From a virus (Duplodnaviria; Heunggongvirae; Uroviricota; Caudoviricetes), in IMG/VR virus record IMGVR_UViG_3300036944_001243: 64,000 bases of DNA; one strand, 5' to 3'. This document shows positions 1 through 12,145 of the stretch, one piece after another. The position numbers were made by a program, and so were the translations under genes. Every line of letters begins with the position of its first letter. Within the stretch, counting starts at the first letter, position 1. The notes under the pieces are model-generated. The model did not search any database, was not told the origin of the DNA, and saw nothing but the letters and a program-made list of their open reading frames with translations.

Positions 1-10
1 TGCTGGATTT

Positions 11-457: not shown

Positions 458-1020
458 ACATTGTAACTTCAGATTCAAAAACTACACTGCTACTCAATAA
501 CGCTTGGCAACCGATCAATACGGTTACTGCTAGGGCAGCATTCACTCACCTTCTAAAAGGTCACGCGACTGCATTAGATAAAAATGGTGTATTGTTTCAC
601 TCTTTGAGTTCTTGGAACGAATTGGCAGAATTCTACGAAGATCAACCGATGCTTCGAAGTGCAAAGTCTGCATGGCCGATTCCAACAATTATTATTGTTA
701 CTAGCAAATTTTTCCGTAGACCAAAGAAAAGAAAGCTTAGTCTTTACGATCTAGCTAAAATTCATGGTTACATTTGCCAATACTGCCTTAACAAAACCGC
801 TTTGTCTGAATTGACAATCGATCACGTTAAGCCAAAAAGCAAAGGCGGCACAGATGATCACGAAAATCGTGTTCTTGCTTGTCGCTCCTGCAACACCAAG
901 AAGAGTTCGCATTCTCCTTGGTTCGATGTGAATGGAAACATTCCAAAAGCGCCATTGATTCCAGCTTTGATGCTCAATGCTCCAAAGATTCGGCAAGAAT
1001 GGGAAGGTTTTTTGCATTAA
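454..1020 (+). CDS. HNH homing endonuclease
   Basis: HVKPKSKGGTDDHENRVLACRSCNTKK HNH motif; start overlaps upstream stop (ATGA). Confidence 0.8.
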   Translation: MNIVTSDSKTTLLLNNAWQPINTVTARAAFTHLLKGHATALDKNGVLFHSLSSWNELAEFYEDQPMLRSAKSAWPIPTIIIVTSKFFRRPKKRKLSLYDLAKIHGYICQYCLNKTALSELTIDHVKPKSKGGTDDHENRVLACRSCNTKKSSHSPWFDVNGNIPKAPLIPALMLNAPKIRQEWEGFLH

Positions 1021-1177
1021 TTCTAAATAAAAATTGAAAAAAAGCGTTCAATTCTTAGAATAGAGTGTAAGAACTTTAAATGAGATATTTTAATCCATCA
1101 AAAACAATCGCAAACCTCTCAAATACTGAGTGGGATGTCGATTAATCGCGGGTAAAAAAGATTTTTTGTTCTCTTTG

Positions 1178-1206
1178 CCCAGCCCTCAAAAGCTGGGTCT
1201 TTTTTT
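1178..1206 (+). terminator. rho-independent terminator (CCCAGC-loop-GCTGGG + T7)
   Basis: 6-bp GC stem followed by TCTTTTTTT, downstream of HNH gene. Confidence 0.7.
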
Positions 1207-1233
1207 GACCAAAAAAGATTCTCAAAAAAGACG

Positions 1234-1261
1234 TTGACAAATTCAGAACGTCTGGTATAGT
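1234..1261 (+). promoter_or_regulatory. sigma70-like promoter TTGACA-N16-TATAGT upstream of tRNA array
   Basis: TTGACA at 1234-1239, TATAGT at 1256-1261, about 90 nt before first tRNA. Confidence 0.55.
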
Positions 1262-1353
1262 CAAAACATCAACGGCAGCGAGCGCCTGAAGCCGCTAAAG
1301 TCCGAGAGGGAGATTAGGGTGCAATAAACCTACTAAATACAAAAAATCTAAAT

Positions 1354-1425
1354 GCTCTCATCGTCTAATGGTCAGGACATCTGGTTTTCAACCAGCAGAT
1401 CGGAGTTCAATTCTCCGTGAGAGTA
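1354..1425 (+). tRNA. tRNA-Glu(TTC)
   Basis: hand-folded cloverleaf: acceptor GCTCTCA/TGAGAGT, anticodon loop TTTTCAA, T-arm CGGAG-TTCAATT-CTCCG; no encoded CCA. Confidence 0.75.
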
Positions 1426-1513
1426 GGTGCAGTAAATTACAAGACTTCCACGCAGTCTGCACTGGACAACTTTTTTAGTTGACAAACATTGTAATAAGTA
1501 ATAGATTTTAAAT

Positions 1514-1590
1514 CGTGGGTAGGACAAGATGGTTAGTCGAGAGTCTCATAAGCTCTATTCTGGGGGATTCAAGCGCCCCACCCGCAACCA
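1514..1590 (+). tRNA. tRNA-Met(CAT), C1-A72 mismatch (initiator-like), CCA encoded
   Basis: anticodon stem AGAGT/GCTCT loop CTCATAA; acceptor CGTGGGT/ACCCGCA with 1-72 C-A mismatch; CCA then AATTT. Confidence 0.6.
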
Positions 1591-1850
1591 ATTTTCAGTT
1601 ATTCGAAACAGAATCGGATATTAAAAATAAAAAGGCCCAAAGTCTGGAATTCCGAAAGAATTTGCAATGTGGTCGATACGCATTGACTGACAATTTCTAA
1701 CTACCTAAAAACCAGTTGGAAATATGCAAGAGCCTAGCTTGCACCGAAATAACTGACTAACATTTTTGAGTGCTGTTAGATAAGGGATACTTCTTCACTA
1801 TTAATGAAACCAAAAACCCCTTGTCGCCTGTTGCCTCAAATTCTTTTAAC

Positions 1851-1927
1851 TGGACGGCATGCAGTAGTGGTGCTGCGCGAGTCTCATAAGCTCGATTGTA
1901 TCGGTTCGACTCCGATCTGTCCTACCA
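1851..1927 (+). tRNA. tRNA-Met/Ile2(CAT)-like, irregular acceptor/D junction
   Basis: anticodon stem CGAGT/GCTCG loop CTCATAA, perfect T-arm ATCGG-TTCGACT-CCGAT, CCA encoded; acceptor pairs only with 1-72 mismatch and 3-nt 8-9 linker. Confidence 0.4.
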
Positions 1928-1936
1928 ATTTTGATT

Positions 1937-2225
1937 AGCAAAAAGGGTGTTTCAACAGCCATAATGCGCTAATCCTTCAGAATTTCGGTGATCTGAAGAG
2001 AAAGAAAACACCGTCCAATTTCAAAAATCATAGGGGAAACGCAGGTTCGAAGTCTGCTGGTAGGGAGATAATACCTTACTGTCGTTTAATACGGAAAGAC
2101 GCCCCTTATTTTAGCAAGCTTAACAGCGTATATCATCTACATCAGAATTTAAAAATGCGTTATAACGCCTCTTTTTAAAAGAGTCTTCTTTAATGAGAAA
2201 GGAATCTGATTTGCTAATATTTTAT
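1937..2225 (+). ncRNA. ORF-free structured region with T-arm-like hairpin (GCAGG-TTCGAAG-TCTGC) and long-range complementary segments; candidate ncRNA/decayed tRNA
   Basis: GATTAGC...GCTAATC and GGTGTTTC...GAAAACACC complementarity, CCAATTT motif without tRNA body. Confidence 0.25.
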
Positions 2226-2311
2226 GTGCGACTAAAGACAGCGGCTTCTGTCAGCAAGACTGTAAATCTTGTCCTTAACTGGGAGTGGATCGACACCACA
2301 GGCGCACACCA
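2226..2311 (+). tRNA. tRNA-Tyr(GTA)-like with long variable arm; irregular (A54 T-loop ATCGACA, 4-nt 8-9 linker)
   Basis: anticodon stem CAAGA/TCTTG loop CTGTAAA; acceptor GTGCGAC/GGCGCAC; CCA encoded. Confidence 0.45.
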
Positions 2312-2319
2312 ATTTCAAA

Positions 2320-2411
2320 GGAAGTATGGCAGAGCGGTCTATTGCACTATCTTGGAAAGATAGAGGTCGCCGAGTGGTGGCCCATAGGTTCAAATCCTAT
2401 TACTTCCGCCA
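2320..2411 (+). tRNA. tRNA-Ser(GGA), type II
   Basis: acceptor GGAAGTA/TACTTCC, anticodon stem CTATC/GATAG loop TTGGAAA, long variable arm, T-arm ATAGG-TTCAAAT-CCTAT, CCA. Confidence 0.75.
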
Positions 2412-2419
2412 GTTTTAAT

Positions 2420-2494
2420 GGGTCGTTCGTCCAACGGACAGGACTTCTGCCTTCTAAGCAGACTATAGAGGTTCGATTCCTCTACGACCTACCA
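2420..2494 (+). tRNA. tRNA-Arg(TCT)
   Basis: acceptor GGGTCGT/ACGACCT, anticodon loop CTTCTAA, T-arm AGAGG-TTCGATT-CCTCT, CCA+ATTT. Confidence 0.8.
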
Positions 2495-2511
2495 ATTTTT
2501 AATGTTTTTAT

Positions 2512-2602
2512 GGGTGTGTGGCAGAGTGGTTTATTGCAGCAATCTTGAAAATTGCAGAGCGTGATGAGCGTTCCGTGGGTTCAAATCCTACCGCACCCGC
2601 CA
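2512..2602 (+). tRNA. tRNA-Ser(TGA), type II
   Basis: acceptor GGGTGTG/CGCACCC, anticodon stem GCAAT/ATTGC loop CTTGAAA, long variable arm, T-arm GTGGG-TTCAAAT-CCTAC, CCA. Confidence 0.75.
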
Positions 2603-2610
2603 AATTTAAT

Positions 2611-2687
2611 CCCTGTCTGGTGTAAGTGGTCTGCACGATTCGCTGAAGACGAGTAGGATGCCTGATCGAAACGGGCGACAGGGGCCA
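2611..2687 (+). tRNA. tRNA-Phe(GAA); T-loop begins with A (ATCGAAA)
   Basis: acceptor CCCTGTC/GACAGGG, D-stem GTGT/GCAC, anticodon stem ATTCG/CGAGT loop CTGAAGA, CCA+ATTT. Confidence 0.7.
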
Positions 2688-2970
2688 ATTTTCAATCTAA
2701 TCTATGAACGATATGGGGCAAGACTATTCTCTTGTCTGTGAGCGATGGAGCAACGGACGCGCTTATTAGATTGATATTTTTTCTTTACATTCATCTGAAA
2801 AGAGCCTATAGTGAACGCAATAGTAAGTCACACGCTTCGGTAGACTATGATAGCGGGCAAATCACAGTTGATGAATGTCAAATCCTTGGATCGGCATATA
2901 TAGTAATGCTGCCACCGTGGAGGTGGAGGAAACTGATGCAAGCGCAGTGAAAAGGACCAATTTCTATAAC

Positions 2971-3054
2971 GGGTGTATAGGTAAGCGGACGAAACCACCT
3001 AGCTTTTAACTAGGTATCTCAACAACGTGGGTTCGAATCCCACTGCACCCACCA
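2971..3054 (+). tRNA. tRNA-Lys(TTT), extended variable region
   Basis: acceptor GGGTGTA/TGCACCC, anticodon stem CCTAG/CTAGG loop CTTTTAA, T-arm GTGGG-TTCGAAT-CCCAC, CCA. Confidence 0.65.
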
Positions 3055-3428
3055 TATTTTTCTACAAAATCATTGATAAAGTGTTTTTTGTGCATTGTTT
3101 TTTCAAATTCCACTTTTCGGTGGCAGCAAGCGCAAAGTAGTTGACACTTATCGAGTTCTGCTCTCATTTTTTCCCAACTCCTTGTGTGTGGATGAGAGAT
3201 TTGAAATTCCTTTGTTGAGGGATCTAAGTGATGAAAATCAAATTCCGCTGGTAATCCAGTATGGCCGCAGATTTCGCATTTTGCACCTTTATATTGGTGA
3301 GCTTTAAAATTCATTTCAATTCTCCTCCTATCTACAAAGTATTTGTTTTTGCACTTTAAGGAGCAGAAATCCTTTGGTCTTCCTTCTTTTGGAACTTCTT
3401 TTTCGCAACAATGATATTTACATTTCAT
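3006..3428 (-). CDS. HNH homing endonuclease (Cys-rich zinc-finger + HNH)
   Basis: DFHHLDPSTKEFQIS...CQLLCACCHRKVE; paralog of 7477..7896; 3' end overlaps tRNA-Lys on opposite strand. Confidence 0.75.
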   Translation of the reverse strand: MKCKYHCCEKEVPKEGRPKDFCSLKCKNKYFVDRRRIEMNFKAHQYKGAKCEICGHTGLPAEFDFHHLDPSTKEFQISHPHTRSWEKMRAELDKCQLLCACCHRKVEFEKTMHKKHFINDFVEKYGGCSGIRTHVVEIPS

Positions 3429-3483
3429 AGAATATATTACACAAAAAGTATAACAATAACTTGTTAATCTTTTAAATTTTTAT

Positions 3484-3560
3484 GCAACAAAAGCCACAGC
3501 GGACGGGCATCTGACTCTTACTCAGCTATCGTGTGGGTTCAACTCCCACTTGTTGCACCA
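3484..3560 (+). tRNA. tRNA-Lys(CTT)
   Basis: acceptor GCAACAA/TTGTTGC, anticodon loop CTCTTAC, T-arm GTGGG-TTCAACT-CCCAC, CCA+ATTT. Confidence 0.7.
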
Positions 3561-3578
3561 ATTTCAAACAATTTTAAT

Positions 3579-3654
3579 TCCCAAGTAGCACAGCGGTAGT
3601 TGCGACTGGCTGTTAACCAGTATGTCGGTGGTTCGATCCCACCCTTGGGAGCCA
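3579..3654 (+). tRNA. tRNA-Asn(GTT)
   Basis: acceptor TCCCAAG/CTTGGGA, anticodon stem ACTGG/CCAGT loop CTGTTAA, T-arm GGTGG-TTCGATC-CCACC, CCA+ATTT. Confidence 0.8.
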
Positions 3655-3661
3655 ATTTTAC

Positions 3662-3735
3662 GGTCCATAAGCATTGTGGCGATGCACCCTCCTTGTAAGT
3701 GGGAGATGACAGTTCGATTCTGTCATGGACCTCCA
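3662..3735 (+). tRNA. tRNA-Thr(TGT) (one U-U mismatch in anticodon stem)
   Basis: acceptor GGTCCAT/ATGGACC, D-stem GCAT/ATGC, anticodon loop CTTGTAA, T-arm GACAG-TTCGATT-CTGTC, CCA. Confidence 0.55.
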
Positions 3736-3740
3736 TGTTT

Positions 3741-3870
3741 TATAGTGGTGATATGCATTGGTTACTTCTATTTGGCAGACGAGACGCAGGTTCGAATCCT
3801 GTCTCCGCGTATTGCGGTGTAGCTTAGTGGATAAAGCGCGAAAATACCAAAGCAGCCTGTTCCCTGTAAT
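3741..3870 (+). pseudogene. tRNA pseudogene fragments: orphan T-arm+3' acceptor (3781-3810, no CCA) followed by orphan tRNA 5' half (GCGGTGTAGCTTAGTGGATAAAGCGCG, 3814-3840)
   Basis: GCAGG-TTCGAAT-CCTGT T-arm with no complementary 5' acceptor within 100 nt; downstream 5'-half-like sequence with no T-arm. Confidence 0.35.
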
Positions 3871-3873
3871 AAT

Positions 3874-3948
3874 TGGACTGTAGCTCAGAGGCAGAGCGCA
3901 CGCCCGATAAGCGTGAAGTCGAGATTTCGAAATTCTCCAGTCCAACCA
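3874..3948 (+). tRNA. tRNA-Ile(GAT) (C at position 33)
   Basis: acceptor TGGACTG/CAGTCCA, anticodon stem CACGC/GCGTG loop CCGATAA, CCA+ATTT. Confidence 0.65.
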
Positions 3949-4210
3949 ATTTTCTATTGACTTTGTTGTTTAAATGAGCATACTAAACGTATGGAACTAG
4001 CATCTGAAGAACAGATTCAAAAATATATCGATAAAGCTGATGAATTCCTTAATCAGCCTTGGCAAATAATGGTAAAATACGCCACTTCCAAACTCGCTAT
4101 CATAGAGTTTCTTGCATGGCAAGATGGTTTGACCATCTATGAATACCATAAGGAAAAATTTGACAGTCACCAAAACGCCTCTTAATATGCGAACCAGTTT
4201 GGTGCTTAAT

Positions 4211-4285
4211 AGGCGCGTAGCTGAGTGGTTGTAGCACCTCTTTGATAAAGTGGAGACGCAGGTTCAATTCCTGCCGTGCCTACCA
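4211..4285 (+). tRNA. tRNA-Ile(GAT)-like (second copy, U-U mismatch in anticodon stem)
   Basis: acceptor AGGCGCG/CGTGCCT, D-stem GCTG/TAGC, anticodon loop TTGATAA, T-arm GCAGG-TTCAATT-CCTGC, CCA+ATTT. Confidence 0.55.
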
Positions 4286-4342
4286 ATTTCATTGACATCC
4301 CACGCCTCTGACGCAAGCGTAATTTGGGATGTGTTTTTCAAA

Positions 4343-4417
4343 GCGTGTATCGTATAATGGTTATTACACAACGTTGCCAACGTTGATACGTCAGTTCGAT
4401 TCTGACTACATGCACCA
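4343..4417 (+). tRNA. tRNA-Gly(GCC)
   Basis: acceptor GCGTGTA/TACATGC, anticodon stem CAACG/CGTTG loop TTGCCAA, T-arm GTCAG-TTCGATT-CTGAC, CCA+ATTT. Confidence 0.8.
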
Positions 4418-4453
4418 ATTTCTCAAATCTTTTAATCAAGTGTATTACCTTAT

Positions 4454-5059
4454 ATGAGGAAATTTTATGATTGGGTTGAAATTCAACGCATGTATGATGA
4501 TGGATTATCTATGCGTGATATTAAATCAAAAATTGGTGTTAATATGGCATCTATGGTTAAAGCGGTTAGAAGAGGCGACCTCGTAACAAGGAGTTTATCT
4601 GATTCAATGAAATTGGTTGTCGCTCAAGGAAAAAATGATCCTGCCGCTATAATTCGTCAACCTAAACATCGTGAGGCGGCTCGTCAAAGGATGTTGGCTA
4701 GAATTAGCGAAAACCCTAATAACCATCCGAACAGAAAGCTCGCTGGTAATCGAAAAAACATGTCATTTCCAGAGAGATTAGTATTTGATTTATTTATTGA
4801 CAAAAAGATTAACTTTGAGCATAATAAGTATATTAAGCCTTTTTGGCCTGATTTTGTAATAGAGAACAAACTCATTATTGAAATTGATGGAGAAAGATGG
4901 CATGATAAAGAAAAAGATTTTCAAAAAGATATATTCTTTCGCTCTCTTGGTTATAGAGTCGTAAGAATTCCAGCTAAAGAGGTATTAAAAAATCCTTTAA
5001 TAGTATTAAATTTCATCGGGGATGAGGAAGACAGCGAATCCGCTACGTTTGGGACGTAG
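4454..5059 (+). CDS. HTH + DUF559/Vsr-like endonuclease domain protein (putative homing endonuclease)
   Basis: C-terminal ...LIIEIDGERWHDKEKDFQKDIFFRSLGYRVVRIPAKEV matches DUF559 restriction-endonuclease-like fold. Confidence 0.55.
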   Translation: MRKFYDWVEIQRMYDDGLSMRDIKSKIGVNMASMVKAVRRGDLVTRSLSDSMKLVVAQGKNDPAAIIRQPKHREAARQRMLARISENPNNHPNRKLAGNRKNMSFPERLVFDLFIDKKINFEHNKYIKPFWPDFVIENKLIIEIDGERWHDKEKDFQKDIFFRSLGYRVVRIPAKEVLKNPLIVLNFIGDEEDSESATFGT

Positions 5060-5070
5060 AGACACTCGGG

Positions 5071-5097
5071 GCAGCACCGAGATCCCTGACCATTTTT
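5071..5097 (+). terminator. hairpin CTCGG-GGCAGCA-CCGAG followed by T-run, possible terminator after 4454..5059
   Basis: 5-bp stem then ATCCCTGACCATTTTT. Confidence 0.35.
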
Positions 5098-5101
5098 ATA
5101 T

Positions 5102-5199
5102 CGTGCAGTTGCCTAGCTTGGTAAGGAGCCTGACTTGGAATCAGGTAGCGGGGACAAGAGCGTTTACCGTCGTGGGTTCGAATCCCACCTGTGCGACCA
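5102..5199 (+). tRNA. tRNA-Pro(TGG)-like, 98 nt with about 26-nt insertion between anticodon and T arms
   Basis: acceptor CGTGCAG/CTGTGCG (2 GU), anticodon stem CCTGA/TCAGG loop CTTGGAA, T-arm GTGGG-TTCGAAT-CCCAC, CCA+ATTT. Confidence 0.5.
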
Positions 5200-5329
5200 A
5201 TTTCAAAAAAATCAAAAAACAGGTTGACAAAAGATCCAATATCTGCATAATCAATCACATCGCCGCGACGAATCAAGAGTTCTCAAAAGCGATCTTAGAA
5301 AATCAAAGGTTTTCTTCGTAAAAAGTTCT

Positions 5330-6224
5330 TTTAAATAAATAAAAATTTGCCCGCTTGGGGGCATCATGGGATAATCTAGAAGTGATTCTAGGAAAGGGAT
5401 AAGGCTCCTACGCCGCCCGCTGTATAAAAGCAGTCCACCAAGCAAGCCGAGAGACGCGAACATACAAACATTTTAAAATATTTGTGTGGTTGAAGCCTAC
5501 GGATCGAGGAGAAACAAAACAGCGAGGTCAACGATGTAGCTGGCCCTGAAAGGGGAGTTTCAATAAGGTCTGAAAGCCTGAGTTTCAAAGGGTAGTCATA
5601 AGTCAGAGTAGAGATACAAAGGCGGAAAGACATGCTGAGAGGTTGTTTTCAGTTTTATATTGAGGATGGTCTTGAATGTGATGAAGAAGTAGCGATACTG
5701 ATTCTAGTTGGTGTGTTGTATTTCTGGTTCTGAGAGGAATTGGAAGCAGCGTGGTTGCGCACACTGACGTAGGTTTCCATTTATTTGCTGGTTCGAATCC
5801 AGCCTCCCCCGCCATCAGAGCATCTAGCTTATGCTTTGACGGGGGGAGTAGCCAAATGGTAAAGGCAGTTGTGTATAAAACAATATTATAAATACTAAAA
5901 GCAAAAGTCGTAACCCCGAAAGCTCAAAAGATGACTAATACCATAGCAGCAATGTAATATGGTGCGGACCCTGACCCAGCAAGGCACAGGGCGTTTAATC
6001 CAAGAAGAAGATTTTGCGGTAGGCATACCCCGAAACTTTGGAAAGGGTTGAGTAGAGTAAGCGGTAAATCGCGAATGCCAGCGATAAATAAAATGGCGTC
6101 ATTGACTGGATACTGTCGAGAGGCAGTGGATAAGTAAGCAAGTAGTGGCTTGGAATGTCGCTTAATAATCTTGCTAAAGGCTGGTCGCTAAAGTTTGTAA
6201 TCTCAGGACTTATTAATCTTCAAC
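5330..6224 (+). ncRNA. ORF-free structured region with circularly permuted tRNA-like module: candidate two-piece (permuted) tmRNA or other tRNA-like ncRNA
   Basis: T-arm GCTGG-TTCGAAT-CCAGC + 3' acceptor CTCCCCC + G + CCA at 5787-5814. A 26-nt spacer hairpin follows. The perfectly complementary 5' acceptor GGGGGAG sits at 5841-5847, followed by a D-like arm. AAATGG (5853-5858) is complementary to CCATTT (5777-5782) just 5' of the T-arm (P2-like). No canonical ...AA-stop tag frame found. Confidence 0.3.
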
Positions 6225-6296
6225 GCTTCGTTAGCTCAGTGGTAGAGCGGATTCTTTATAAGGGTCGGGTCGCTGGATCGTTCCCAGCACGAAGTA
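6225..6296 (+). tRNA. tRNA, anticodon TAT? (Ile-UAU-like), irregular T-loop ATCGTTC, no CCA
   Basis: acceptor GCTTCGT/ACGAAGT, D-arm GCTC-AGTGGTA-GAGC, anticodon stem GATTC/GGGTC loop TTTATAA. Confidence 0.45.
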
Positions 6297-6303
6297 TTTA
6301 AAT

Positions 6304-6378
6304 GGCTTGATCATATAATGGTTATTATGCACCCCTGGTATGGGTGATACTGGAGTTCGATTCTCCATCGAGCCTCCA
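6304..6378 (+). tRNA. tRNA-Thr(GGT)
   Basis: acceptor GGCTTGA/TCGAGCC, anticodon stem CACCC/GGGTG loop CTGGTAT, T-arm TGGAG-TTCGATT-CTCCA, CCA+ATTT. Confidence 0.8.
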
Positions 6379-6391
6379 ACAATTTTCAAAC

Positions 6392-6466
6392 GGGCAATTA
6401 GTAGAACGGACATAACGTTGCGCTACGGACGCGAAGAAAGAGGTTCAATTCCTCTATTGCCTACCA
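6392..6466 (+). tRNA. tRNA-Arg(ACG)
   Basis: acceptor GGGCAAT/ATTGCCT, anticodon stem TTGCG/CGCGA loop CTACGGA, T-arm AGAGG-TTCAATT-CCTCT, CCA. Confidence 0.7.
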
Positions 6467-6474
6467 GTTTTTAT

Positions 6475-6553
6475 GGAGCCATGGACAAATTGGTAAAGTC
6501 GCTACCCTGTCAAGGTAGATATGTTGCGGGTTCGATGCCCGTTGGTTCCGCCA
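6475..6553 (+). tRNA. tRNA-Asp(GTC)
   Basis: acceptor GGAGCCA/TGGTTCC, anticodon stem CTACC/GGTAG loop CTGTCAA, T-arm GCGGG-TTCGATG-CCCGT, CCA+ATTT. Confidence 0.75.
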
Positions 6554-6563
6554 ATTTTCTTAT

Positions 6564-6639
6564 GGATTAGTCATCTAATAGGCTAAGATCCTCCCGAGTG
6601 TGGAGGCAACGTGGGTTCAAGACCCCACCTAATCCACCA
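6564..6639 (+). tRNA. tRNA-like, anticodon undetermined (loop CGAGTGT, G33; possible AGT), 8-nt T-loop
   Basis: perfect acceptor GGATTAG/CTAATCC, CCA+ATTT; anticodon stem CCTCC/GGAGG; non-canonical loop. Confidence 0.45.
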
Positions 6640-6650
6640 ATTTATTTTAT

Positions 6651-6726
6651 GGGGCTATAGCATAATTGATAATGCATCTGCTTTGCAAGCAGCCGACTGT
6701 CGGTTTGAGTCCGACTAGCTCCACCA
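6651..6726 (+). tRNA. tRNA-Ala(TGC)
   Basis: acceptor GGGGCTA/TAGCTCC (G3-U70), D-stem GCAT/ATGC, anticodon loop TTTGCAA, T-arm GTCGG-TTTGAGT-CCGAC, CCA. Confidence 0.8.
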
Positions 6727-6924
6727 GTTTTGATGAAGATGCAGCTTGGTGCTGTTGGTGTGCTTACCTGCCACTCGAAAAGGTAAGAGTTAGCGTTCAA
6801 CGCTTCTTATCAAGCCCGCGCTTAACGATAGAGAAATGAACAAATACATACCATCCTCATGTTTGAAGGAAGGGTTTCAAGTTCAAAAGGAAAACGACTG
6901 CCTATCATAAAAGGGTCTAGGTGG

Positions 6925-6953
6925 TTCGAATCCACTCTTCATCATCATTCAAT
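6925..6953 (+). pseudogene. orphan tRNA 3' fragment (T-arm GGTGG-TTCGAAT-CCACT + acceptor CTTCATC, no CCA); complementary 5' acceptor GATGAAG lies 200 nt upstream at 6732
   Basis: possible intron-containing/split tRNA or decayed gene. Confidence 0.3.
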
Positions 6954-7029
6954 GGGGCGCACATACTACAGTGCTAACGTTGTAACTCAACGGCAGGCAA
7001 GCCGAAGTAGGTTTCGGGCCGCTCCACCA
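6954..7029 (+). tRNA. tRNA-like (76 nt, CCA encoded), irregular arms; anticodon uncertain (possible AAC)
   Basis: acceptor GGGGCGC/CCGCTCC (6/7), hairpin CGTT-GTAACTC-AACG, T-like hairpin CCGAA-GTAGGT-TTCGG, CCA+ATTT. Confidence 0.4.
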
Positions 7030-7119
7030 ATTTTCTGTAAAACAAAAGAGGTCAATAACCGCGCCTGATTATTGATTACGATGCGAGAGATCGGGCTTTA
7101 GGGGTTCTCACAGAATAAT

Positions 7120-7193
7120 GTTCCGTTCGTCTAATGGTAAGACTACTCCCTCCAAAAGAGAAAACGTGGGTTCGATTCCTACACGGTTCGCCA
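7120..7193 (+). tRNA. tRNA-Trp(CCA) with two U-U mismatches in acceptor
   Basis: D-arm GTC-TAATGGTAA-GAC, anticodon loop CTCCAAA, T-arm GTGGG-TTCGATT-CCTAC, CCA+ATTT. Confidence 0.5.
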
Positions 7194-7362
7194 ATTTTCC
7201 CTGCCTTTGAAAACAAAGACTTTTCAAAGTATTCTTTGGATATAAAGCTGGATCACAACCAGATGAGGCCAAGGACAGTCCGACACAAATTAAAGTATGG
7301 ATGGATTCGTGACCATCAGAAAATAGTCACTGTGGTTTTTCGGTAGTGGGGACAATTTTTAT

Positions 7363-7438
7363 CGCGTCGTGGGGAGAATGGCTATCTCACTGCCTGCAAA
7401 GCAGATTCATGCTGGTTCAAGTCCAGTCGGCGCGTCCA
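7363..7438 (+). tRNA. tRNA-Cys(GCA)
   Basis: acceptor CGCGTCG/CGGCGCG, D-stem GGGA/TCTC, anticodon loop CTGCAAA, T-arm GCTGG-TTCAAGT-CCAGT, CCA+ATTT. Confidence 0.75.
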
Positions 7439-7476
7439 ATTTCTATTACTCATGAAATTCGTGTAATAATGAGTAT

Positions 7477-7896
7477 ATGTCAAAAAAAGACTTAAAAGAA
7501 AAAAAATGTAAGAATTGTGGAGAGGTGAAATCTACTAAAGACTTTTATCCTCAAAAAGCTTATAATAATGGTGCAGTTTATGATACTTGGGATTGCTATT
7601 GCAAATCTTGCAGATTAGAAGCTTCAGCCGAGCGAAGAAGGATTTTAAAAAGAAAAGCTATAGAATATCTTGGTGGAAAATGCGCTGATTGTGGAGAATC
7701 AAGAGATATTCCATCTATTTATGATTTTCACCATTTAGATCCTAGCAAAAAAGATTTTTCAATTGGCAAACAAGCCAAAAAACTTGATTCTGTGAAGAAA
7801 GAACTCGACAAGTGTGTTCTTCTTTGTGCAAACTGTCACAGGATAAGACATTCTCAAAATCAAAAGGAGGTTGGCTTAGAAGCAGCCACGGATTGA
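7477..7896 (+). CDS. HNH homing endonuclease (zinc-finger + HNH)
   Basis: CKNCGEVKS...IYDFHHLDPSKKDFSIG...LDKCVLLCANCHRIRH. Confidence 0.8.
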   Translation: MSKKDLKEKKCKNCGEVKSTKDFYPQKAYNNGAVYDTWDCYCKSCRLEASAERRRILKRKAIEYLGGKCADCGESRDIPSIYDFHHLDPSKKDFSIGKQAKKLDSVKKELDKCVLLCANCHRIRHSQNQKEVGLEAATD

Positions 7897-8096
7897 GAAT
7901 CCTCACGATTTATCGTGACCTTTAAAGAGTAGGACGAAGCACCCAATCCGTGCGAAATGCCAAATAATGTCGGGCTGTAAGGTGGCATATATTGGTGATG
8001 TGCTGTGGGAAAAATGCGGATAGTGATAAGGCACCCCCGAAACGGTAAGGCATATTCTCCTTTTGGCGTAGTAGCACACTTTTGATTTATTTTAAC

Positions 8097-8169
8097 GGGG
8101 GATTGATGTAATGGTAGCATTTCTGATTTACATTCAGAACGCGGGGGTTCGAAGCCCTCATCCCCTACC
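8097..8169 (+). tRNA. tRNA-Val(TAC)
   Basis: acceptor GGGGGAT/ATCCCCT, anticodon stem TCTGA/TCAGA loop TTTACAT, T-arm GGGGG-TTCGAAG-CCCTC, CCA+ATTT. Confidence 0.7.
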
Positions 8170-8349
8170 AATTTTTAATTATGGCTAAGATCATTAATAG
8201 TTTTAAACAACAAAAAAAACGTCAGAAAAAAAATGGACATATAGAACCGTTTTTTAAAAGAAAAAAGTTTGAAAAGTATATCTCTAAGACAGTTTTTGAG
8301 GAACCATCATTAAAAGAATTTTTAAAAAAACCAAATTAACAATTTTCAT

Positions 8350-8426
8350 GCGAATGTAGCGCAACTGGCAGAGGCAATAGTTCGAGGGACTATATAGTGC
8401 GGGTTCGAATCCCGCCATTCGCACCA
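8350..8426 (+). tRNA. tRNA with anticodon GAG (Leu-type anticodon) but class-I body, C33
   Basis: perfect acceptor GCGAATG/CATTCGC, anticodon stem ATAGT/ACTAT loop TCGAGGG, T-arm GCGGG-TTCGAAT-CCCGC, CCA. Confidence 0.5.
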
Positions 8427-8429
8427 AAT

Positions 8430-8510
8430 GGCTCAGTTGACAAAACAGGTAAAGTCGCTTCGCTTAGAACGAAGAATATCTTGTGGGTTCGACTCCCACC
8501 TGAGCCACCA
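8430..8510 (+). tRNA. tRNA with Leu anticodon TAG, short (8 nt) variable region
   Basis: acceptor GGCTCAG/CTGAGCC, anticodon stem CTTCG/CGAAG loop CTTAGAA, T-arm GTGGG-TTCGACT-CCCAC, CCA+ATTT. Confidence 0.6.
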
Positions 8511-8525
8511 ATTTACAAAACAAAA

Positions 8526-8768
8526 ATGATAAACAAAGACACTCTAGTAACTGCTGTATGGTGCGGTCCATGTAAAACAATCAAATTTTTTCTTGCTTCA
8601 AAGCCAAAAGACATCGATTTTGTCGATGCCGATGAGGATCAAGATTTCTGCAAACAATGGGGAATCAGAGCAGTTCCTACTTTAATTACCGTTAAAAACG
8701 AAAAAATAGTCGGTAATGAAAAAATCATGGAACATCTTTTGAAACTTCCTGATTTTAAAAGCGAATAA
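8526..8768 (+). CDS. thioredoxin/glutaredoxin-like protein
   Basis: WCGPCK active-site motif, ...VPTLI; ORF track N-terminal extension (8397-8525) overlaps tRNA and is rejected. Confidence 0.65.
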   Translation: MINKDTLVTAVWCGPCKTIKFFLASKPKDIDFVDADEDQDFCKQWGIRAVPTLITVKNEKIVGNEKIMEHLLKLPDFKSE

Positions 8769-8786
8769 ACAATTTCTAGAATAAGG

Positions 8787-8870
8787 GTCAGCTTAGTGGC
8801 GTAATTGACCACAGGTGTTTAGATAGACAATGGAGGCGGTGAGGTTCGATTCCCAACAGGCTCTGGTGAG
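8787..8870 (+). pseudogene. degenerate tRNA-like sequence (GGGTCAG...TTCGATT T-loop, no acceptor closure, no CCA)
   Basis: D-arm-like CTTAGTGGCGTAA and T-loop GGTTCGATTCC present but stems do not close. Confidence 0.3.
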
Positions 8871-8926
8871 TATACAGCTTCTCGGAACGAACGTGAAATC
8901 CTAGACAGACCTAATTTTAATGCAAT

Positions 8927-9003
8927 GGCTCGCTGCGCTAATTGGCAATGCGGCAATACTCAAGATATTGTGTCTCTCAGTTCGAATCTGAGGCGAGCTA
9001 CCA
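8927..9003 (+). tRNA. tRNA with Leu anticodon CAA, class-I body (very short variable region)
   Basis: acceptor GGCTCGC/GCGAGCT, D-loop TAATTGGCAA, anticodon stem CAATA/TATTG loop CTCAAGA, T-arm CTCAG-TTCGAAT-CTGAG, CCA. Confidence 0.5.
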
Positions 9004-10332
9004 TTATCTACTGACTTCTTCCCAGTCCATAGAGCCATGGACAAGTTCATTGTTTGTGCTTGCCGCAACTGCGAGAGTTAATTCGTAAGCTTCGCCAGTC
9101 AAACCGTTTCTTTCTAGTTGGAATTTAAACAGAGCTTCTTTGAGAATATCTATGGTTGTAGATGATTGAGTATTAGAGGCGAAGTAACCAGATGCTAATA
9201 CTCTGCCTCCAGATACTCCAGTTCCATTTAACTTGTATTCTATGGACGAGTTAACTCCTGCATCAGTCCAAGTGCCGCCTGTTGTGGTTCCAGATGCAAT
9301 TATTTTCCAATTATAAACACCACTGCCGATTCCCATTAAGGATAAAGCTGTTAAAATAACAATAGCGTCGAGCCTAGTTGATTTTAATTTTATAGAAACC
9401 ACAGGATAAAATGTTCCAGCAGTTCCTAAAGCTTTTGGCGCAGTTATTGCGGTTCCTGCTGCCTGTTGAAGACCTCTGAGTTCATAGCCTCCCTCTGATA
9501 TTACTGTGCTGCATATTTGTTTTAGTTTGCTAGAACCAGAAGTTGCGGCGGTATTTGCTATTTCATATCTAAGTGGTAAAGATGCTGTGGTGATATAAGT
9601 TGAATCAATGATGTTGGCGTGATGGAACGTATGACATAAAATAAATCTGCCATTGATAACAAACCCCATTCTTACTGATCCAAGACCTAACCATTCTATG
9701 TCCATCCATAAAATCTGTGCTTTGGTTATATCTAAAGTAAATCCAGACGCACCAGTTCCATCTAATTTATCGCCGTTCCAAGCTGATTGAGGAACTCTTG
9801 TTTCTGTAACTGGAGTGCCATCAACTAATGAGCGCTCAACCAAATTCAATGTTGAATCTACAAGCTCCAAATACATTCCATTATCAGCACCAAAATAGCC
9901 GACTCTTTGAGTAAGGCCAGTTTTCTCTGGAGACATTACAAAAGTATTTAAGTTAAGTAAGCTTTTCCCTGGTTGATAAGCAAAAACTTTTGTTGTTTCT
10001 CTAGTAATGAATGAACCAGAAGCGTTGGTTACATTTAGTTCCATGAGCCCCTCATTTTGATTAAATGAGACACTGCCACTGACTCCACTCGCTGTTGACC
10101 AAAGATTGTTGTCAGCGTATCTATGACTAGAATCAAACAATGTTAGCGGGCTTGAAGTTCTCATTCTGCCAAAAGCGTCAAAAGATGTTGATCCTTCTGA
10201 ATTGGCAAAACTTAAATCGCTTTTTTCTATTGGTCTGTATGTGTCTTCAGTGCGGTCATATAAAAATGGAATTTGCCCAGCGGTGTGAGCTAATTGATTT
10301 AAATTCTGGAAATTATATTGTTGCGCTGACAT
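9004..10332 (-). CDS. Gly/Ser/Thr-rich large protein, putative virion structural/receptor-binding-like protein
   Basis: 442 aa, repeated NxSG/TGxxG motifs, compositional similarity to 16313..17836 and 61086..61907; function not recognisable from sequence. Confidence 0.3.
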   Translation of the reverse strand: MSAQQYNFQNLNQLAHTAGQIPFLYDRTEDTYRPIEKSDLSFANSEGSTSFDAFGRMRTSSPLTLFDSSHRYADNNLWSTASGVSGSVSFNQNEGLMELNVTNASGSFITRETTKVFAYQPGKSLLNLNTFVMSPEKTGLTQRVGYFGADNGMYLELVDSTLNLVERSLVDGTPVTETRVPQSAWNGDKLDGTGASGFTLDITKAQILWMDIEWLGLGSVRMGFVINGRFILCHTFHHANIIDSTYITTASLPLRYEIANTAATSGSSKLKQICSTVISEGGYELRGLQQAAGTAITAPKALGTAGTFYPVVSIKLKSTRLDAIVILTALSLMGIGSGVYNWKIIASGTTTGGTWTDAGVNSSIEYKLNGTGVSGGRVLASGYFASNTQSSTTIDILKEALFKFQLERNGLTGEAYELTLAVAASTNNELVHGSMDWEEVSR

Positions 10333-10477
10333 GGTGGAAATTAATCATTTTTAATAAAGACCCAGACTTTTCACAGAACTGCGATTTTTTATTATAAAAT
10401 ATGTTACACTTTTTTTTTGCGAAAATCAATATTTAGTCTTGACTCGCGACTAATTCCTGATAGAATAGGTTCACAAA

Positions 10478-10564
10478 GGCTCAATGGTGGAATTGCCAGA
10501 CACTGGAGACTTAAAATCTTTTGCTCGGAAGAGCGTGCGGGTTGGAGTCCCGCTTGAGCTACCA
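10478..10564 (+). tRNA. tRNA-Leu(TAA), type II
   Basis: acceptor GGCTCAA/TTGAGCT, anticodon stem GGAGA/TCTTT loop CTTAAAA, long variable arm TGCTCGGAAGAGCG, T-arm GCGGG-TTGGAGT-CCCGC, CCA+AATTT. Confidence 0.7.
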
Positions 10565-10567
10565 AAT

Positions 10568-11068: not shown

Positions 11069-11132
11069 ATATTAATTTACACAATTAGGAAGTCGCAGAG
11101 AAATTTTACTGCGCGATTACCAAACTTTCAAC

Positions 11133-12138: not shown

Positions 12139-12145
12139 TCAAAAC

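What the first reader, a model, noticed from the sequence alone, without database searches (positions are those of the whole stretch)
5330..6224. Circularly permuted tRNA-like module inside a 900-bp ORF-free region: candidate two-piece tmRNA
- At 5787-5814 there is a canonical T-arm (GCTGG-TTCGAAT-CCAGC) followed by the 3' acceptor strand CTCCCCC, a discriminator G and CCA.
- There is no complementary 5' acceptor upstream. The perfectly complementary GGGGGAG lies 26 nt downstream (5841-5847), followed by a D-arm-like GCC-AAATGGTAAA-GGC.
- The AAATGG of that arm is complementary to CCATTT located just 5' of the T-arm, which gives a P2-like helix.
- This 3'-piece, spacer hairpin, 5'-piece order is the gene organisation of permuted (two-piece) tmRNAs in alpha-proteobacteria and marine cyanobacteria.
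- About 450 nt upstream and about 380 nt downstream are non-coding and structured.
- I could not find a canonical tag reading frame ending in Ala-Ala-stop, so it could instead be a novel tRNA-like ncRNA or a split tRNA.
Basis: partly seen in the sequence, partly recalled or inferred. Interest (0 to 1): 0.75.

Follow-up and report, generated by a model that had tools for sequence, protein, structure and literature searches.

The report
GOLLD RNA carrying a permuted tRNA
The 900-base gene-free stretch is a GOLLD RNA, a giant phage RNA known to form cages, not a two-piece tmRNA; unusually, its internal linker holds a complete tRNA-shaped domain written in rearranged order with an intact CCA end, a design that recurs in other phages and gives a testable clue to what these RNAs do.

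Summary
Re-joined in silico it is called a tRNA.

The tmRNA reading fails: G3-C70, G73, no conserved tag frame, no ARAGORN call, and only local hits to permuted-tmRNA models (20.8-24.5 bits). A one-piece tmRNA lies at 12866-13257.

The region is a full-length GOLLD RNA (RF02032, 136.6 bits, E 1e-37, whole model). It is a ~955-bp cassette (5257-6211) behind a promoter in a cyanomyovirus tRNA array, and close relatives lack it. The module fills the GOLLD linker.

In about 100 of 122 IMG/VR loci matching this subtype's motif, that linker holds a normal-order tRNA-like unit without CCA. The permuted form recurs in L385 (core 96% identical, GOLLD domains 77%) and in L310 (distant, 7 both-sided compensatory changes). 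All three keep a perfect 7-bp acceptor plus NCCA; the anticodons differ.

Best reading, inferred: a tRNA mimic that presents an acceptor-CCA end and is probably nicked by RNase P, as M. smegmatis YrlA is. It is a new variant of a known kind.

The parts
5224..5251 (+). sigma-70-like promoter TTGACA-N16-CATAAT that would drive the GOLLD RNA and the downstream tRNAs
   Evidence: 11 of 12 consensus matches. The same promoter sits directly in front of tRNA-Ile(UAU) in relative L122, which lacks GOLLD, and in front of GOLLD in L385. Function is inferred.
5257..6211 (+). GOLLD RNA cassette: a clean ~955-bp presence/absence difference relative to close relatives
   Evidence: L122 is 89-99% identical on both sides, but window 5256 joins directly to about 6212. 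L201 and L202 also lack it. In L385 the homologous cassette lies at a different place in the same tRNA array.
5330..5705 (+). GOLLD 5' domain
   Evidence: 78.6% identical to L385, with visible compensatory changes. It shares motifs such as AAGCAAGCC and AAAGGGTAG...GTC.GAG with the 5' regions of Rfam-confirmed GOLLDs L206, L207, L244 and L251. No ORF longer than 81 aa.
5706..5768 (+). Hairpin that opens the Rfam GOLLD model (model positions 1-65)
   Evidence: Rfam alignment. The motif GTGTGTTGTATT is conserved in more than 120 IMG/VR loci.
5769..5775 (+). Conserved GTAGGTT motif at the start of the GOLLD linker (J13/15)
   Evidence: Present in window, L227, L251, L310, L385 and the 120 loci. 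In normal-order units its GTT forms the first bases of the acceptor stem.
5779..5784 (+). 5' strand of the closing helix (AUUUAU), at the position of a class II variable arm
   Evidence: The minimum-energy fold pairs it with 5888-5893. L310 has a different 4-bp helix, AAGU/ACUU, at the same place. ARAGORN accepts it as a variable arm when capped with a loop.
5787..5803 (+). T-arm (GCTGG-TTCGAAT-CCAGC)
   Evidence: Sequence, fold, 94% identical in L385, two pairs changed but still paired in L310 (one both-sided T-A to A-T, one C-G to G.U wobble).
5804..5814 (+). 3' acceptor strand CTCCCCC, discriminator G, CCA
   Evidence: 7 of 7 Watson-Crick pairs with 5842-5848. 100% identical in L385. L310 has ACTCCCC-A-CCA with three compensated pairs.
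5815..5841 (+). Spacer that caps the acceptor stem: 9-bp hairpin 5815-5823 / 5831-5839 with a 7-nt loop. Predicted to be removed if RNase P cuts between 5841 and 5842.
   Evidence: Fold. 26 of 27 bases identical in L385. Replaced by a 9-nt loop in L310. Removal is inferred.
5842..5848 (+). 5' acceptor strand GGGGGAG
   Evidence: Perfect complement of 5804-5810.
5849..5867 (+). U8 A9, D-arm (GCC-AAATGGTAAA-GGC), A26
   Evidence: Sequence, fold. The third D-stem pair C-G becomes G-C in L310.
5868..5884 (+). Anticodon-like arm GTTGT-GTATAAA-ACAAT; the triplet at positions 34-36 is ATA
   Evidence: Fold. Only 76% identical in L385. The triplet is ATT in L385 and GAT in L310, so it is not conserved.
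5888..5893 (+). 3' strand of the closing helix (AUAAAU)
5897..6209 (+). GOLLD 3' domain (Rfam model positions about 109-416), with the conserved motifs AAAGCAAAAGUC, UGACUAAU, GAGUAG, GUGGAUAAG and UGUAAUCUCAG
   Evidence: Rfam RF02032 alignment. 74.5% identical to L385.
6225..6296 (+). tRNA-Ile(UAU) 16 nt after the GOLLD model end. Its RNase P site would set the 3' end of GOLLD.
   Evidence: ARAGORN and Rfam. Co-transcription and processing are inferred.

Best explanation
Window 5257-6211 encodes a full-length GOLLD RNA. GOLLD is the giant phage RNA that assembles into 12- to 14-mer cages. Here it is transcribed from the promoter at 5224-5251 together with the downstream tRNAs of a T4-like cyanophage tRNA array.

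Its variable linker (J13/15), which points into the cage interior in the solved structures, holds a self-contained 115-nt domain (5779-5893). This domain is a complete tRNA cloverleaf in circularly permuted order. It is joined to the GOLLD body through a short helix at the position of a class II variable arm. Its acceptor stem points away from the body and is closed by a removable spacer.

Shown:
- the GOLLD identity;
- the permuted fold;
- its conservation and covariation in two GOLLD lineages;
- retention of a perfect 7-bp acceptor stem plus NCCA while the anticodon drifts.

Inferred: the domain is a tRNA mimic whose working part is the acceptor/T-arm/elbow, not the anticodon. It presents a genuine acceptor-CCA end to enzymes that recognise tRNA. 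The most likely first event is RNase P cleavage between 5841 and 5842, followed by trimming of the spacer back to CCA 5814. That would turn GOLLD into two pieces held together by the tRNA-like fold, in the way two-piece tmRNA and M. smegmatis YrlA mature.

My estimates: GOLLD identity 0.97; functional permuted tRNA-like fold 0.9; RNase P nicking in vivo about 0.5; aminoacylation about 0.1.
For: GOLLD identity
- RF02032 covers 5706-6209 over the whole model at 136.6 bits, E 9.7e-38, with the module as an insertion in the linker.
- L310, which carries the same kind of module, scores 188.5 bits, above the threshold of 150.
- The 5' part is homologous to other GOLLD 5' domains.
- The setting is a 31-tRNA array in a cyanomyovirus relative.
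- The cassette is a clean indel relative to L122, L201 and L202.

Fold
- Minimum-energy and centroid structures match the permuted cloverleaf.
- The re-joined sequences of all three homologues are called tRNAs by ARAGORN.

Selection
- Between window and L385, the T-arm/acceptor/CCA/spacer/D-arm core is 79/82 identical, against 599/776 in the GOLLD domains (Fisher p 6e-6). The anticodon arm is 13/17.
- Between window and L310, all 24 stem pairs are kept; 7 pairs changed on both sides and one changed to a G.U wobble, and the closing helix is entirely different in sequence.

CCA contrast
- 3 of 3 permuted modules have NCCA and 7 Watson-Crick acceptor pairs.
- 65 of 66 normal-order embedded units lack CCA, and none has 7 Watson-Crick pairs.
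- Free-standing tRNAs on sampled GOLLD-bearing contigs, including all three with permuted modules, encode CCA in most cases (67-96%, about 88% pooled).

Precedent
- M. smegmatis YrlA has the same T-arm-first topology and a closed 7-bp acceptor stem. It is cut by RNase P in vitro, and is cleaved and CCA-tailed in vivo (PMC4201824).
- tRNAs in the GOLLD linker, facing the cage interior, are described in PMC12286853 and PMC12990946.
- From my own knowledge: marine Synechococcus hosts mature a permuted two-piece tmRNA, so the processing machinery exists in the likely host.
Against: - There are no expression or end-mapping data, so cleavage is pure inference.
- The base at -1 is G, whereas bacterial RNase P prefers U. 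The 27-nt trailer is a stable hairpin that exonucleases may not remove.
- The linker lies inside the assembled cage, which may exclude RNase P. PMC12990946 proposes 'inhibited storage'.
- Only three permuted examples were found, in two lineages. Window and L385 are close relatives, so conservation of CCA and the spacer could partly reflect limited divergence time.
- The Rfam score of the window copy is below the curated threshold (136.6 against 150).
- S. Typhimurium YrlA and D. radiodurans Yrn1 are not cleaved, so closed tRNA mimics can work uncut.
Confidence: 0.55

Rival explanations
1. Same GOLLD RNA and same conserved permuted tRNA-like domain, but it is never cut. It works as a closed-acceptor tRNA mimic, a docking platform inside the cage for a tRNA-binding protein (modification enzyme, Ro60 partner, host nuclease or toxin), like S. 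Typhimurium YrlA.
For: - S. Typhimurium YrlA and D. radiodurans Yrn1 are not cleaved yet are recognised by TruB and DusA (PMC4201824).
- The spacer hairpin is 26/27 conserved in L385, which would be odd for a discarded segment.
- G at -1 is a poor RNase P context.
- The window encodes a TROVE/Ro60 protein and three other T-arm-first modules.
- The linker lies inside the cage (PMC12286853).
Against: - A perfect 7-bp G/C-rich acceptor stem plus NCCA is kept in both lineages, although the spacer changes from 27 to 9 nt.
- Normal-order embedded units, which cannot expose an end, have lost CCA and carry weak acceptor stems.
- A 7-bp acceptor stem is what made M. smegmatis YrlA an RNase P substrate (PMC4201824).
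Confidence: 0.3
2. A neutral rearrangement scar. An embedded tRNA was duplicated in tandem and the outer halves were lost, leaving the 3' half of copy 1, the intergenic spacer and the 5' half of copy 2, with no function of its own.
For: - Tandem duplication followed by partial deletion is the standard route to a permuted gene (general knowledge).
- The normal-order embedded tRNA is the rule in this GOLLD subtype.
- Encoded CCA followed by a spacer and then G+1 looks like a tRNA-tRNA junction, and these phages encode CCA on their tRNAs.
Against: - The retained parts make exactly one complete cloverleaf, with nothing missing or doubled.
- The core is far more conserved than the functional GOLLD domains around it (96% against 77%, p 6e-6).
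- The distant L310 copy keeps every stem through compensatory changes.
- The design occurs on two different GOLLD backbones.
Confidence: 0.07
3. One reading: a circularly permuted, two-piece tmRNA that rescues stalled ribosomes.
For: - The local order T-arm, 3' acceptor strand, CCA, loop, 5' acceptor strand is that of permuted tmRNA genes and gives weak local hits: beta_tmRNA 24.5 bits, tmRNA_permuted 20.8 bits.
- From my own knowledge: the likely hosts (marine cyanobacteria) use two-piece tmRNA.
Against: - The scores are far below the thresholds (84 and 47) and cover 64 nt only.
- ARAGORN finds no tmRNA.
- G3-C70 and G73 stand in place of G3.U70 and A73.
- Full D and anticodon arms are present.
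- No tag frame is conserved among window, L385 and L310.
- Everything downstream is conserved GOLLD 3' domain.
- A one-piece tmRNA is at 12866-13257, and its L385 homologue has a canonical tag ending LAAA.
Confidence: 0.02
4. A genuine permuted tRNA gene whose halves are joined after transcription, as in Cyanidioschyzon merolae, to give a decoding tRNA.
For: The cloverleaf is complete, with all tertiary-contact nucleotides and CCA. ARAGORN calls no tRNA-Tyr or tRNA-Trp in the window.
Against: - The anticodon is not conserved (ATA, ATT, GAT) and has A at position 34 in two of three copies. The anticodon arm evolves at the background rate and has a broken pair in L385.
- From established knowledge: bacteria lack the bulge-helix-bulge splicing endonuclease used for circularisation.
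- The ends to be joined lie about 500 and 300 nt away in conserved GOLLD domains.
Confidence: 0.03

Closest known systems
GOLLD RNA (Rfam RF02032) with a tRNA in the linker J13/15 (Weinberg et al. 2009, recalled from memory, not read here; Morgado et al. 2020 as cited in PMC12990946; Kretsch et al. 2025, PMC12286853)
   Same: - The whole Rfam model is matched.
- About 950 nt long, in a phage tRNA array.
- 5' and 3' domains separated by a variable linker.
- A tRNA-shaped unit sits in that linker, at the same site as in L227, L251 and about 100 other loci.
   Different: The embedded unit here is circularly permuted (T-arm first, break in the variable arm). It carries a perfect acceptor stem and encoded CCA capped by a spacer. 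The normal-order units use a weak acceptor stem as the junction with GOLLD and lack CCA. The papers I could search do not mention a permuted form.
YrlA-type bacterial and phage Y RNAs (Chen et al. 2014, PMC4201824; Rfam RF02553)
   Same: - T-arm-first order, with the acceptor stem closed by a loop and D-arm/T-arm elbow mimicry.
- Found in phage tRNA arrays next to Ro60/TROVE genes. The window has a TROVE ORF and three such modules.
- M. smegmatis YrlA, with a 7-bp acceptor stem, is cut by RNase P and CCA-tailed.
   Different: - No RF02553 hit on the module, even at E up to 10 or in L310 and L385.
- The module has a full anticodon arm and encoded CCA, which YrlA lacks.
- It has no Ro60-binding stem formed by the RNA ends.
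- It is embedded in a 950-nt GOLLD rather than being a ~100-nt free RNA.
Two-piece (permuted) tmRNA of alpha-proteobacteria, some beta-proteobacteria and marine cyanobacteria (Rfam RF04321, RF01850; details from my own knowledge)
   Same: Gene order is T-arm, 3' acceptor strand, CCA, intervening segment, 5' acceptor strand. Maturation is expected to be by RNase P plus 3' trimming, giving two base-paired pieces.
   Different: No alanine identity (G3-C70, G73), no tag frame, no pseudoknots of the tmRNA type, full D and anticodon arms, and sub-threshold local hits only.
Circularly permuted tRNA genes of Cyanidioschyzon merolae and other algae (Soma 2014, cited in PMC10085705; details from my own knowledge)
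   Same: The 3' half lies upstream of the 5' half. An intervening segment between CCA-side and G+1 is removed by RNase P and a 3' nuclease. The cloverleaf is complete when re-joined.
   Different: - Those are eukaryotic nuclear genes, circularised through a bulge-helix-bulge motif, and they yield decoding tRNAs with conserved anticodons.
- Here the host is bacterial, the break is bridged by ~400-nt GOLLD domains on each side, and the anticodon drifts.

Membership tests
GOLLD RNA (RF02032) | Match to the Rfam covariance model at or above the curated gathering score (150 bits) | tested here: not met
   136.6 bits, E 9.7e-38, full model 1-416. The shortfall sits beside a ~100-nt insertion in the linker. 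L385 scores 138.2. L310, with the same kind of insertion, scores 188.5. Other evident GOLLDs also fall just below the threshold (L066 120.7, L067 147.8).
GOLLD RNA (RF02032) | Full-length, statistically significant alignment including the conserved 3'-domain motifs and helices | tested here: met
   All 416 model positions are aligned. The motifs AAAGCAAAAGUC, UGACUAAU, GAGUAG, CGUCAnUGAC, GUGGAUAAG and UGUAAUCUCAG are present.
GOLLD RNA (RF02032) | A ~400-nt, less conserved 5' domain upstream, giving a total length above 800 nt | tested here: met
   5257/5330-5705 is free of long ORFs, 78.6% identical to L385 with compensatory changes, and shares motifs with the 5' regions of Rfam-confirmed GOLLDs. 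No covariance model of the 5' domain was available.
GOLLD RNA (RF02032) | Phage or prophage location next to or within tRNA arrays | tested here: met
   31 tRNAs in window 1-16300. The neighbouring structural protein is 62-70% identical to those of Synechococcus myoviruses.
GOLLD RNA (RF02032) | Assembly into a 12- to 14-mer cage | not testable with these tools
   Known from cryo-EM of env-38 and S. agalactiae GOLLD (PMC12286853, PMC12990946).
Two-piece (permuted) tmRNA | Match to a tmRNA covariance model at its threshold, or an ARAGORN tmRNA call | tested here: not met
   beta_tmRNA 24.5 bits against 84 and tmRNA_permuted 20.8 against 47, covering 64 nt only. No ARAGORN call.
Two-piece (permuted) tmRNA | Alanine identity: G3.U70 wobble pair and A73 | tested here: not met
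   G3-C70 and G73 in window and L385; G3-C70 and A73 in L310.
Two-piece (permuted) tmRNA | Tag reading frame with a resume codon, ending in hydrophobic residues (usually Ala-Ala) and a stop, conserved among relatives | tested here: not met
   The only candidate (from GCA 5901, ending ...IAAM*) lies in the most conserved GOLLD helices and is not kept in L385 or L310.
Two-piece (permuted) tmRNA | Permuted order of the tRNA-like domain halves with an intervening segment | tested here: met
   This is the only tmRNA feature present.
Canonical tRNA gene | Contiguous 5'-to-3' cloverleaf | tested here: not met
   ARAGORN and the Rfam tRNA model find nothing at 5787-5884 as encoded. A tRNA is called only after in silico re-joining.
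Canonical tRNA gene | Anticodon conserved among orthologues | tested here: not met
   ATA, ATT and GAT in the three homologues.
YrlA Y RNA (RF02553) | Match to the YrlA covariance model | tested here: not met
   No hit at E up to 10 in 5150-6300. None on the modules of L310 or L385 at E up to 0.01, although L310 has YrlA-like hits elsewhere.
YrlA Y RNA (RF02553) | T-arm-first tRNA-like domain with the acceptor stem closed by a loop | tested here: met
YrlA Y RNA (RF02553) | Ro60-binding stem with the GNCGAA(N0-1)G motif formed by the RNA's own ends | tested here: not met
   The module is closed by a 4-6-bp A/U helix and continues into the GOLLD domains. The motif (GGCGAAG) is seen instead in the separate element at 13760-13880, next to the TROVE gene.

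The most novel reading that the evidence does not exclude
The permuted module turns GOLLD into a two-piece RNA with a real, chargeable tRNA end. RNase P and 3' trimming would remove the spacer. The result is in effect a class II tRNA whose variable-arm loop is replaced by the GOLLD body. Its identity would be independent of the anticodon: G73 in window and L385, A73 in L310, reminiscent of Ser- and Leu-type recognition. Each cage would then display 12-14 CCA or aminoacyl ends in its lumen. These could serve as a decoy or sink for synthetases, EF-Tu, CCA-modifying toxins or acceptor-end nucleases, or as a store of activated amino acids during infection.
Probability: 0.1. Interest if true: 0.85.

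Novelty: new variant of a known kind. Interest (0 to 1): 0.62.

Why it matters
GOLLD is among the largest bacterial and phage non-coding RNAs. Its cage structure was solved in 2025, but its function is unknown. Its association with tRNAs is the main functional clue.

Two results sharpen that clue.

1. In one abundant GOLLD subtype, a tRNA-shaped unit in the linker is the rule (about 100 of 122 matched loci), not an occasional passenger. It differs from the same phages' ordinary tRNA genes: it has no CCA and a weak acceptor stem.

2. A permuted version exists in which selection keeps the acceptor stem, CCA, T-arm and D-arm but not the anticodon. This points to the acceptor end and the elbow as the working surface, and rules out decoding as the role.

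The permuted copy also gives a simple experiment, because it predicts a discrete RNase P nick and a CCA 3' end inside a ~950-nt RNA. As far as I could find, it would be the first circularly permuted complete tRNA cloverleaf reported from a phage. It also links three RNA classes that share this topology: GOLLD, YrlA-type Y RNAs and two-piece tmRNA.

Tried and rejected
- BLAST of 5300-6230 against 50,697 phage records found no match. GOLLD is too divergent at the sequence level for this.
- The pattern GCAAAAGTC..TGACTAAT in IMG/VR gave 62 hits, all by chance. An nhmmer search with the window's 3' domain found nothing.
- An exact 25-mer of the T-arm plus acceptor found nothing in IMG/VR.
- I spent the single metagenome scan on GGTTCRANTCC-N85-115-AAAGCAAAAGTC. 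All 43 hits were ordinary tRNAs followed by chance matches. That was a poor use of the scan.
- The genome scan with the GOLLD 3'-end pattern found only one locus.
- 80 IMG/VR loci encoding relatives of the neighbouring 442-aa protein contain no related GOLLD. Closer relatives found through metagenome proteins (P0001, P0007) also lack it. This showed that the cassette is sporadic.
- Exact-protein look-ups retrieved only identical copies of the window, so they gave no variation.
- A protein search with the spurious 70-aa ORF across the module, meant to fish for related loci, found no candidates.
- An HMM built from six GOLLD 3' domains was too narrow. A relaxed search for permuted modules was too noisy.
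- I considered a covariance model of the permuted module but did not build it. Every held GOLLD linker had already been inspected.
- The host of L310 could not be fixed. The best protein matches were weak and mixed: Agrobacterium, Pelagibacter and Methylophilales phages.
- The Weinberg 2009 and Morgado 2020 papers are not in the held library.
Full report
**1. The observation**

One search shows the described elements. In order they are:
- T-arm GCTGG-TTCGAAT-CCAGC (5787-5803);
- 3' acceptor strand CTCCCCC (5804-5810), G (5811) and CCA (5812-5814);
- a 27-nt spacer (5815-5841);
- U8 A9 and the D-arm GCC-AAATGGTAAA-GGC (5851-5866).

The module is therefore a whole cloverleaf, not only a tmRNA-like acceptor/T domain.

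Three tests show it is more than chance:
- The minimum-energy and centroid folds of 5771-5900 give exactly this structure. They also show a 9-bp hairpin in the spacer and a 6-bp closing helix, 5779-5784 / 5888-5893 (-38.8 kcal/mol, z -2.6).
- When 5842-5886 (the 5' acceptor strand through the anticodon arm plus 2 nt) is joined to 5787-5814 by 3-6 linker bases, ARAGORN calls a tRNA in 22 of 22 variants. It also calls a tRNA when the closing helix is kept and capped as a class II variable arm.
- A strict search for the same arrangement in 5.1 Mb of other loci found it with a canonical T-loop only in identical copies of this locus and in Y-RNA-like elements; one further hit was not examined and looks like two neighbouring tRNA genes.

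**2. What the region is**

ARAGORN finds 31 tRNAs in window 1-16300 but nothing in 5200-6224.

An Rfam scan at E-value threshold gives GOLLD (RF02032) on 5706-6209. The whole 416-position model is aligned, at 136.6 bits and E 9.7e-38, and the tRNA-like module sits as an insertion in the model's linker. The score is below the curated 150 bits. However, other evident GOLLDs also fall just under the threshold, and L310, which has the same kind of insertion, scores 188.5.

The upstream 375-450 nt is the GOLLD 5' domain. It is 78.6% identical to a homologue, with compensatory changes, and it shares motifs with the 5' regions of Rfam-confirmed GOLLDs.

The only tmRNA-type hits are local: beta_tmRNA 24.5 bits (threshold 84) and tmRNA_permuted 20.8 bits (threshold 47). 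Both cover 5787-5850 only.

**3. Genomic setting**

The neighbouring 442-aa protein is 62-70% identical to virion proteins of Synechococcus T4-like myoviruses.

Identical copies of the region occur in four metagenome contigs.

The close relative L122 is 89-99% identical on both sides but joins window 5256 directly to about 6212. L201 and L202 also lack the segment. GOLLD is therefore a ~955-bp cassette.

The cassette starts 6 nt after the -10 box of a TTGACA-N16-CATAAT promoter (5224-5251). In L122 that promoter drives tRNA-Ile(UAU) directly. By inference, GOLLD is transcribed with the downstream tRNAs, and RNase P cleavage at 6224/6225 sets its 3' end. In L385 the homologous cassette, with the same promoter, lies at a different position in the same array.

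**4. The linker in other GOLLDs**

[quoted passage not shown] A 'pseudo tRNA' is reported in another (PMC6582537).

I confirmed the normal form in L227 and L251. Rfam GOLLD scores are 218 and 211 bits, with a nested tRNA hit at the same site.

About 100 of the 122 matching loci carry a normal-order tRNA-like unit directly after GTAGGTT.
- Of 95 unique linkers, ARAGORN as tRNAs, with many different anticodons.
- 65 of those 66 lack CCA, and none has seven Watson-Crick acceptor pairs.
- By contrast, free-standing tRNAs on sampled GOLLD-bearing contigs, including all three with permuted modules, encode CCA in most cases (67-96%, about 88% pooled).

In these units the weak acceptor stem is the junction with the GOLLD body.

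Phaeobacter phage MD18 has such a unit annotated as tRNA-Arg inside an unannotated GOLLD.

**5. The permuted form recurs**

*L385* is a relative of the window's phage. Its GOLLD is about 77% identical, but the stretch from T-arm through acceptor, GCCA, spacer and acceptor to D-arm is 79/82 identical (Fisher p 6e-6). The anticodon arm is 13/17 identical, has one broken pair, and carries a different triplet.

*L310* has a different GOLLD backbone, closest to roseophage GOLLDs. It has the order T-arm GGAGG/CCTTC, ACTCCCC-A-CCA, a 9-nt loop, GGGGAGT, D-arm GCG/CGC and anticodon arm CTTGT/ACAAG. All 24 stem pairs are maintained; 7 pairs changed on both sides and one changed to a G.U wobble relative to the window. 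A different 4-bp closing helix sits at the same place. Its fold is the same.

Anticodons are ATA, ATT and GAT. NCCA and a perfect 7-bp acceptor stem are kept in all three.

**6. How it most likely works**

Shown:
- a conserved, covarying, independently folding tRNA-shaped domain;
- attachment through the variable-arm position;
- an acceptor-CCA end that is distal and capped;
- selection on the acceptor, T and D parts but not on the anticodon.

Inferred: it is a tRNA mimic that presents an acceptor end.

The closest precedent is M. smegmatis YrlA. It has the same T-arm-first topology and a closed 7-bp acceptor stem. It is cleaved by RNase P in vitro and is cleaved and CCA-tailed in vivo, whereas YrlAs with shorter stems are not (PMC4201824).

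I therefore favour RNase P cleavage at 5841/5842 and trimming to 5814, giving a two-piece GOLLD (about 0.5). The main alternative is an uncut docking platform (about 0.3).

Against cleavage: the base at -1 is G, the trailer hairpin is stable and conserved, and the linker lies inside the cage.

**7. Comparison and novelty**

The region is a member of GOLLD: it meets all testable features except the curated bit score.

It is not a tmRNA, not a canonical tRNA gene, and not a YrlA by model or by Ro60-binding stem. It does share the YrlA topology and the permuted-tmRNA gene order.

Searches for GOLLD together with 'permuted', 'tRNA' or 'RNase P' found no description of a permuted embedded tRNA. A search for 'permuted tRNA' with 'phage' found only eukaryotic and archaeal cases.

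I rate it a new variant of a known kind, with interest 0.62. The headline hypothesis is wrong. What is there bears directly on the unknown function of GOLLD and makes it testable.

**8. Limits**

- There are three permuted copies in two lineages, and no expression data.
- The IMG/VR scan was truncated and the metagenome scan was wasted, so the prevalence of the permuted form is unknown.
- The host of L310 is unresolved.

Noticed in passing
window 13894-15348 (+), with 13615-13760 and 13760-13880 upstream: A TROVE-domain (Ro60/Rsr-like) ORF (PF05731, E 1.5e-15) is preceded by two Y-RNA-like elements. Each has a long stem formed by its own ends that encloses a T-arm-first tRNA-like module (13668-13725 with a closed 7-bp acceptor stem; 13806-13845). 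The second carries the Ro60-binding-type motif GGCGAAG. The Rfam YrlA model does not hit either.
   Followed up: partly
window 2033-2106 (+); homologue in L123, - strand, around 5054: A further T-arm-first tRNA-like module: GCAGG-TTCGAAG-TCTGC, an acceptor stem closed by GAGAUAAUAC, a D-arm and a GGGG/CCCC closing stem. It lies between tRNA-Met and tRNA-Ser. The L123 copy has compensatory changes in the acceptor stem.
   Followed up: partly
window 12866-13257 (+): One-piece tmRNA by Rfam (61.2 bits) that ARAGORN misses in the window. ARAGORN does call the L385 homologue, with the tag GKNKVVTFRKSAKVARKASLAAA*. So a phage of a host group that itself uses two-piece tmRNA carries a one-piece tmRNA.
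   Followed up: partly
window 13270-13370 (+): Two more small T-arm-containing elements lie just after the tmRNA: GAGAGTTCGAATCTCTC at about 13283, and a mascRNA-like mini tRNA at 13323-13368 (21 bits, E 0.11).
   Followed up: no
L063 1953-2032 (-), L067 9078-9159 (+), L068 967-1047 (+): In another GOLLD subtype, an ~80-nt minimal tRNA-like element with G3.U70 and A73 lies immediately upstream of the GOLLD 5' domain. It resembles a tmRNA acceptor/T domain without the mRNA part (Rfam tmRNA 47-59 bits, spanning model ends only). L064, otherwise almost identical, lacks it.
   Followed up: partly
L253-L371 (IMG/VR loci): In the GOLLD subtype marked by GTGTGTTGTATT...GTAGGTT, about 100 of 122 loci carry a normal-order tRNA-like unit in the linker. 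Anticodons vary (GTT 22, TTT 10, CTT 8 and others), there is no CCA, and the acceptor stems are weak. A few have no unit or a truncated one (L276, L297, L304, L322, L364), or an added hairpin (L266, L321).
   Followed up: yes
window 454-1020 (+) and 4454-5059 (+): HNH and DUF559 endonuclease-like ORFs lie inside the tRNA array. The DUF559 ORF is absent from the close relative L122. This suggests homing-endonuclease insertions next to the mobile GOLLD cassette.
   Followed up: partly
window 5102-5199 (+); L385 12993-13090: tRNA-Pro(UGG) is 98 nt long, about 22 nt more than usual, and the extra length is conserved in L385. I did not examine what the extra segment is.
   Followed up: no
window 7120-7190 (+): An Rfam tRNA hit (42.9 bits) is not called by ARAGORN. 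ARAGORN calls no tRNA-Tyr or tRNA-Trp in the window.
   Followed up: no
window tRNA array, e.g. 1927, 2494, 2687, 3560, 3654: Most tRNAs end in encoded CCA followed directly by ATTT(T/C). This recurring motif could be a processing or spacing signal.
   Followed up: no
L399 1599-1672 (Phaeobacter phage MD18, MT270409.1 22670-22743): The annotated 'tRNA-Arg' of this cultured roseophage, and of DSS3_MAL1, lies inside an unannotated GOLLD RNA.
   Followed up: partly
L070, L077, L083, L094, L095, L106, L109, L111 (metagenome loci): Downstream of a tRNA and a terminator-like hairpin there is a recurring element, GGAATCGAACGGAACTTTTGCGC...AAAGCAAAAGTC. It partly mirrors the 3' end of the tRNA. Its nature is unknown; it could be an attachment-site repeat or another RNA.
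   Followed up: no
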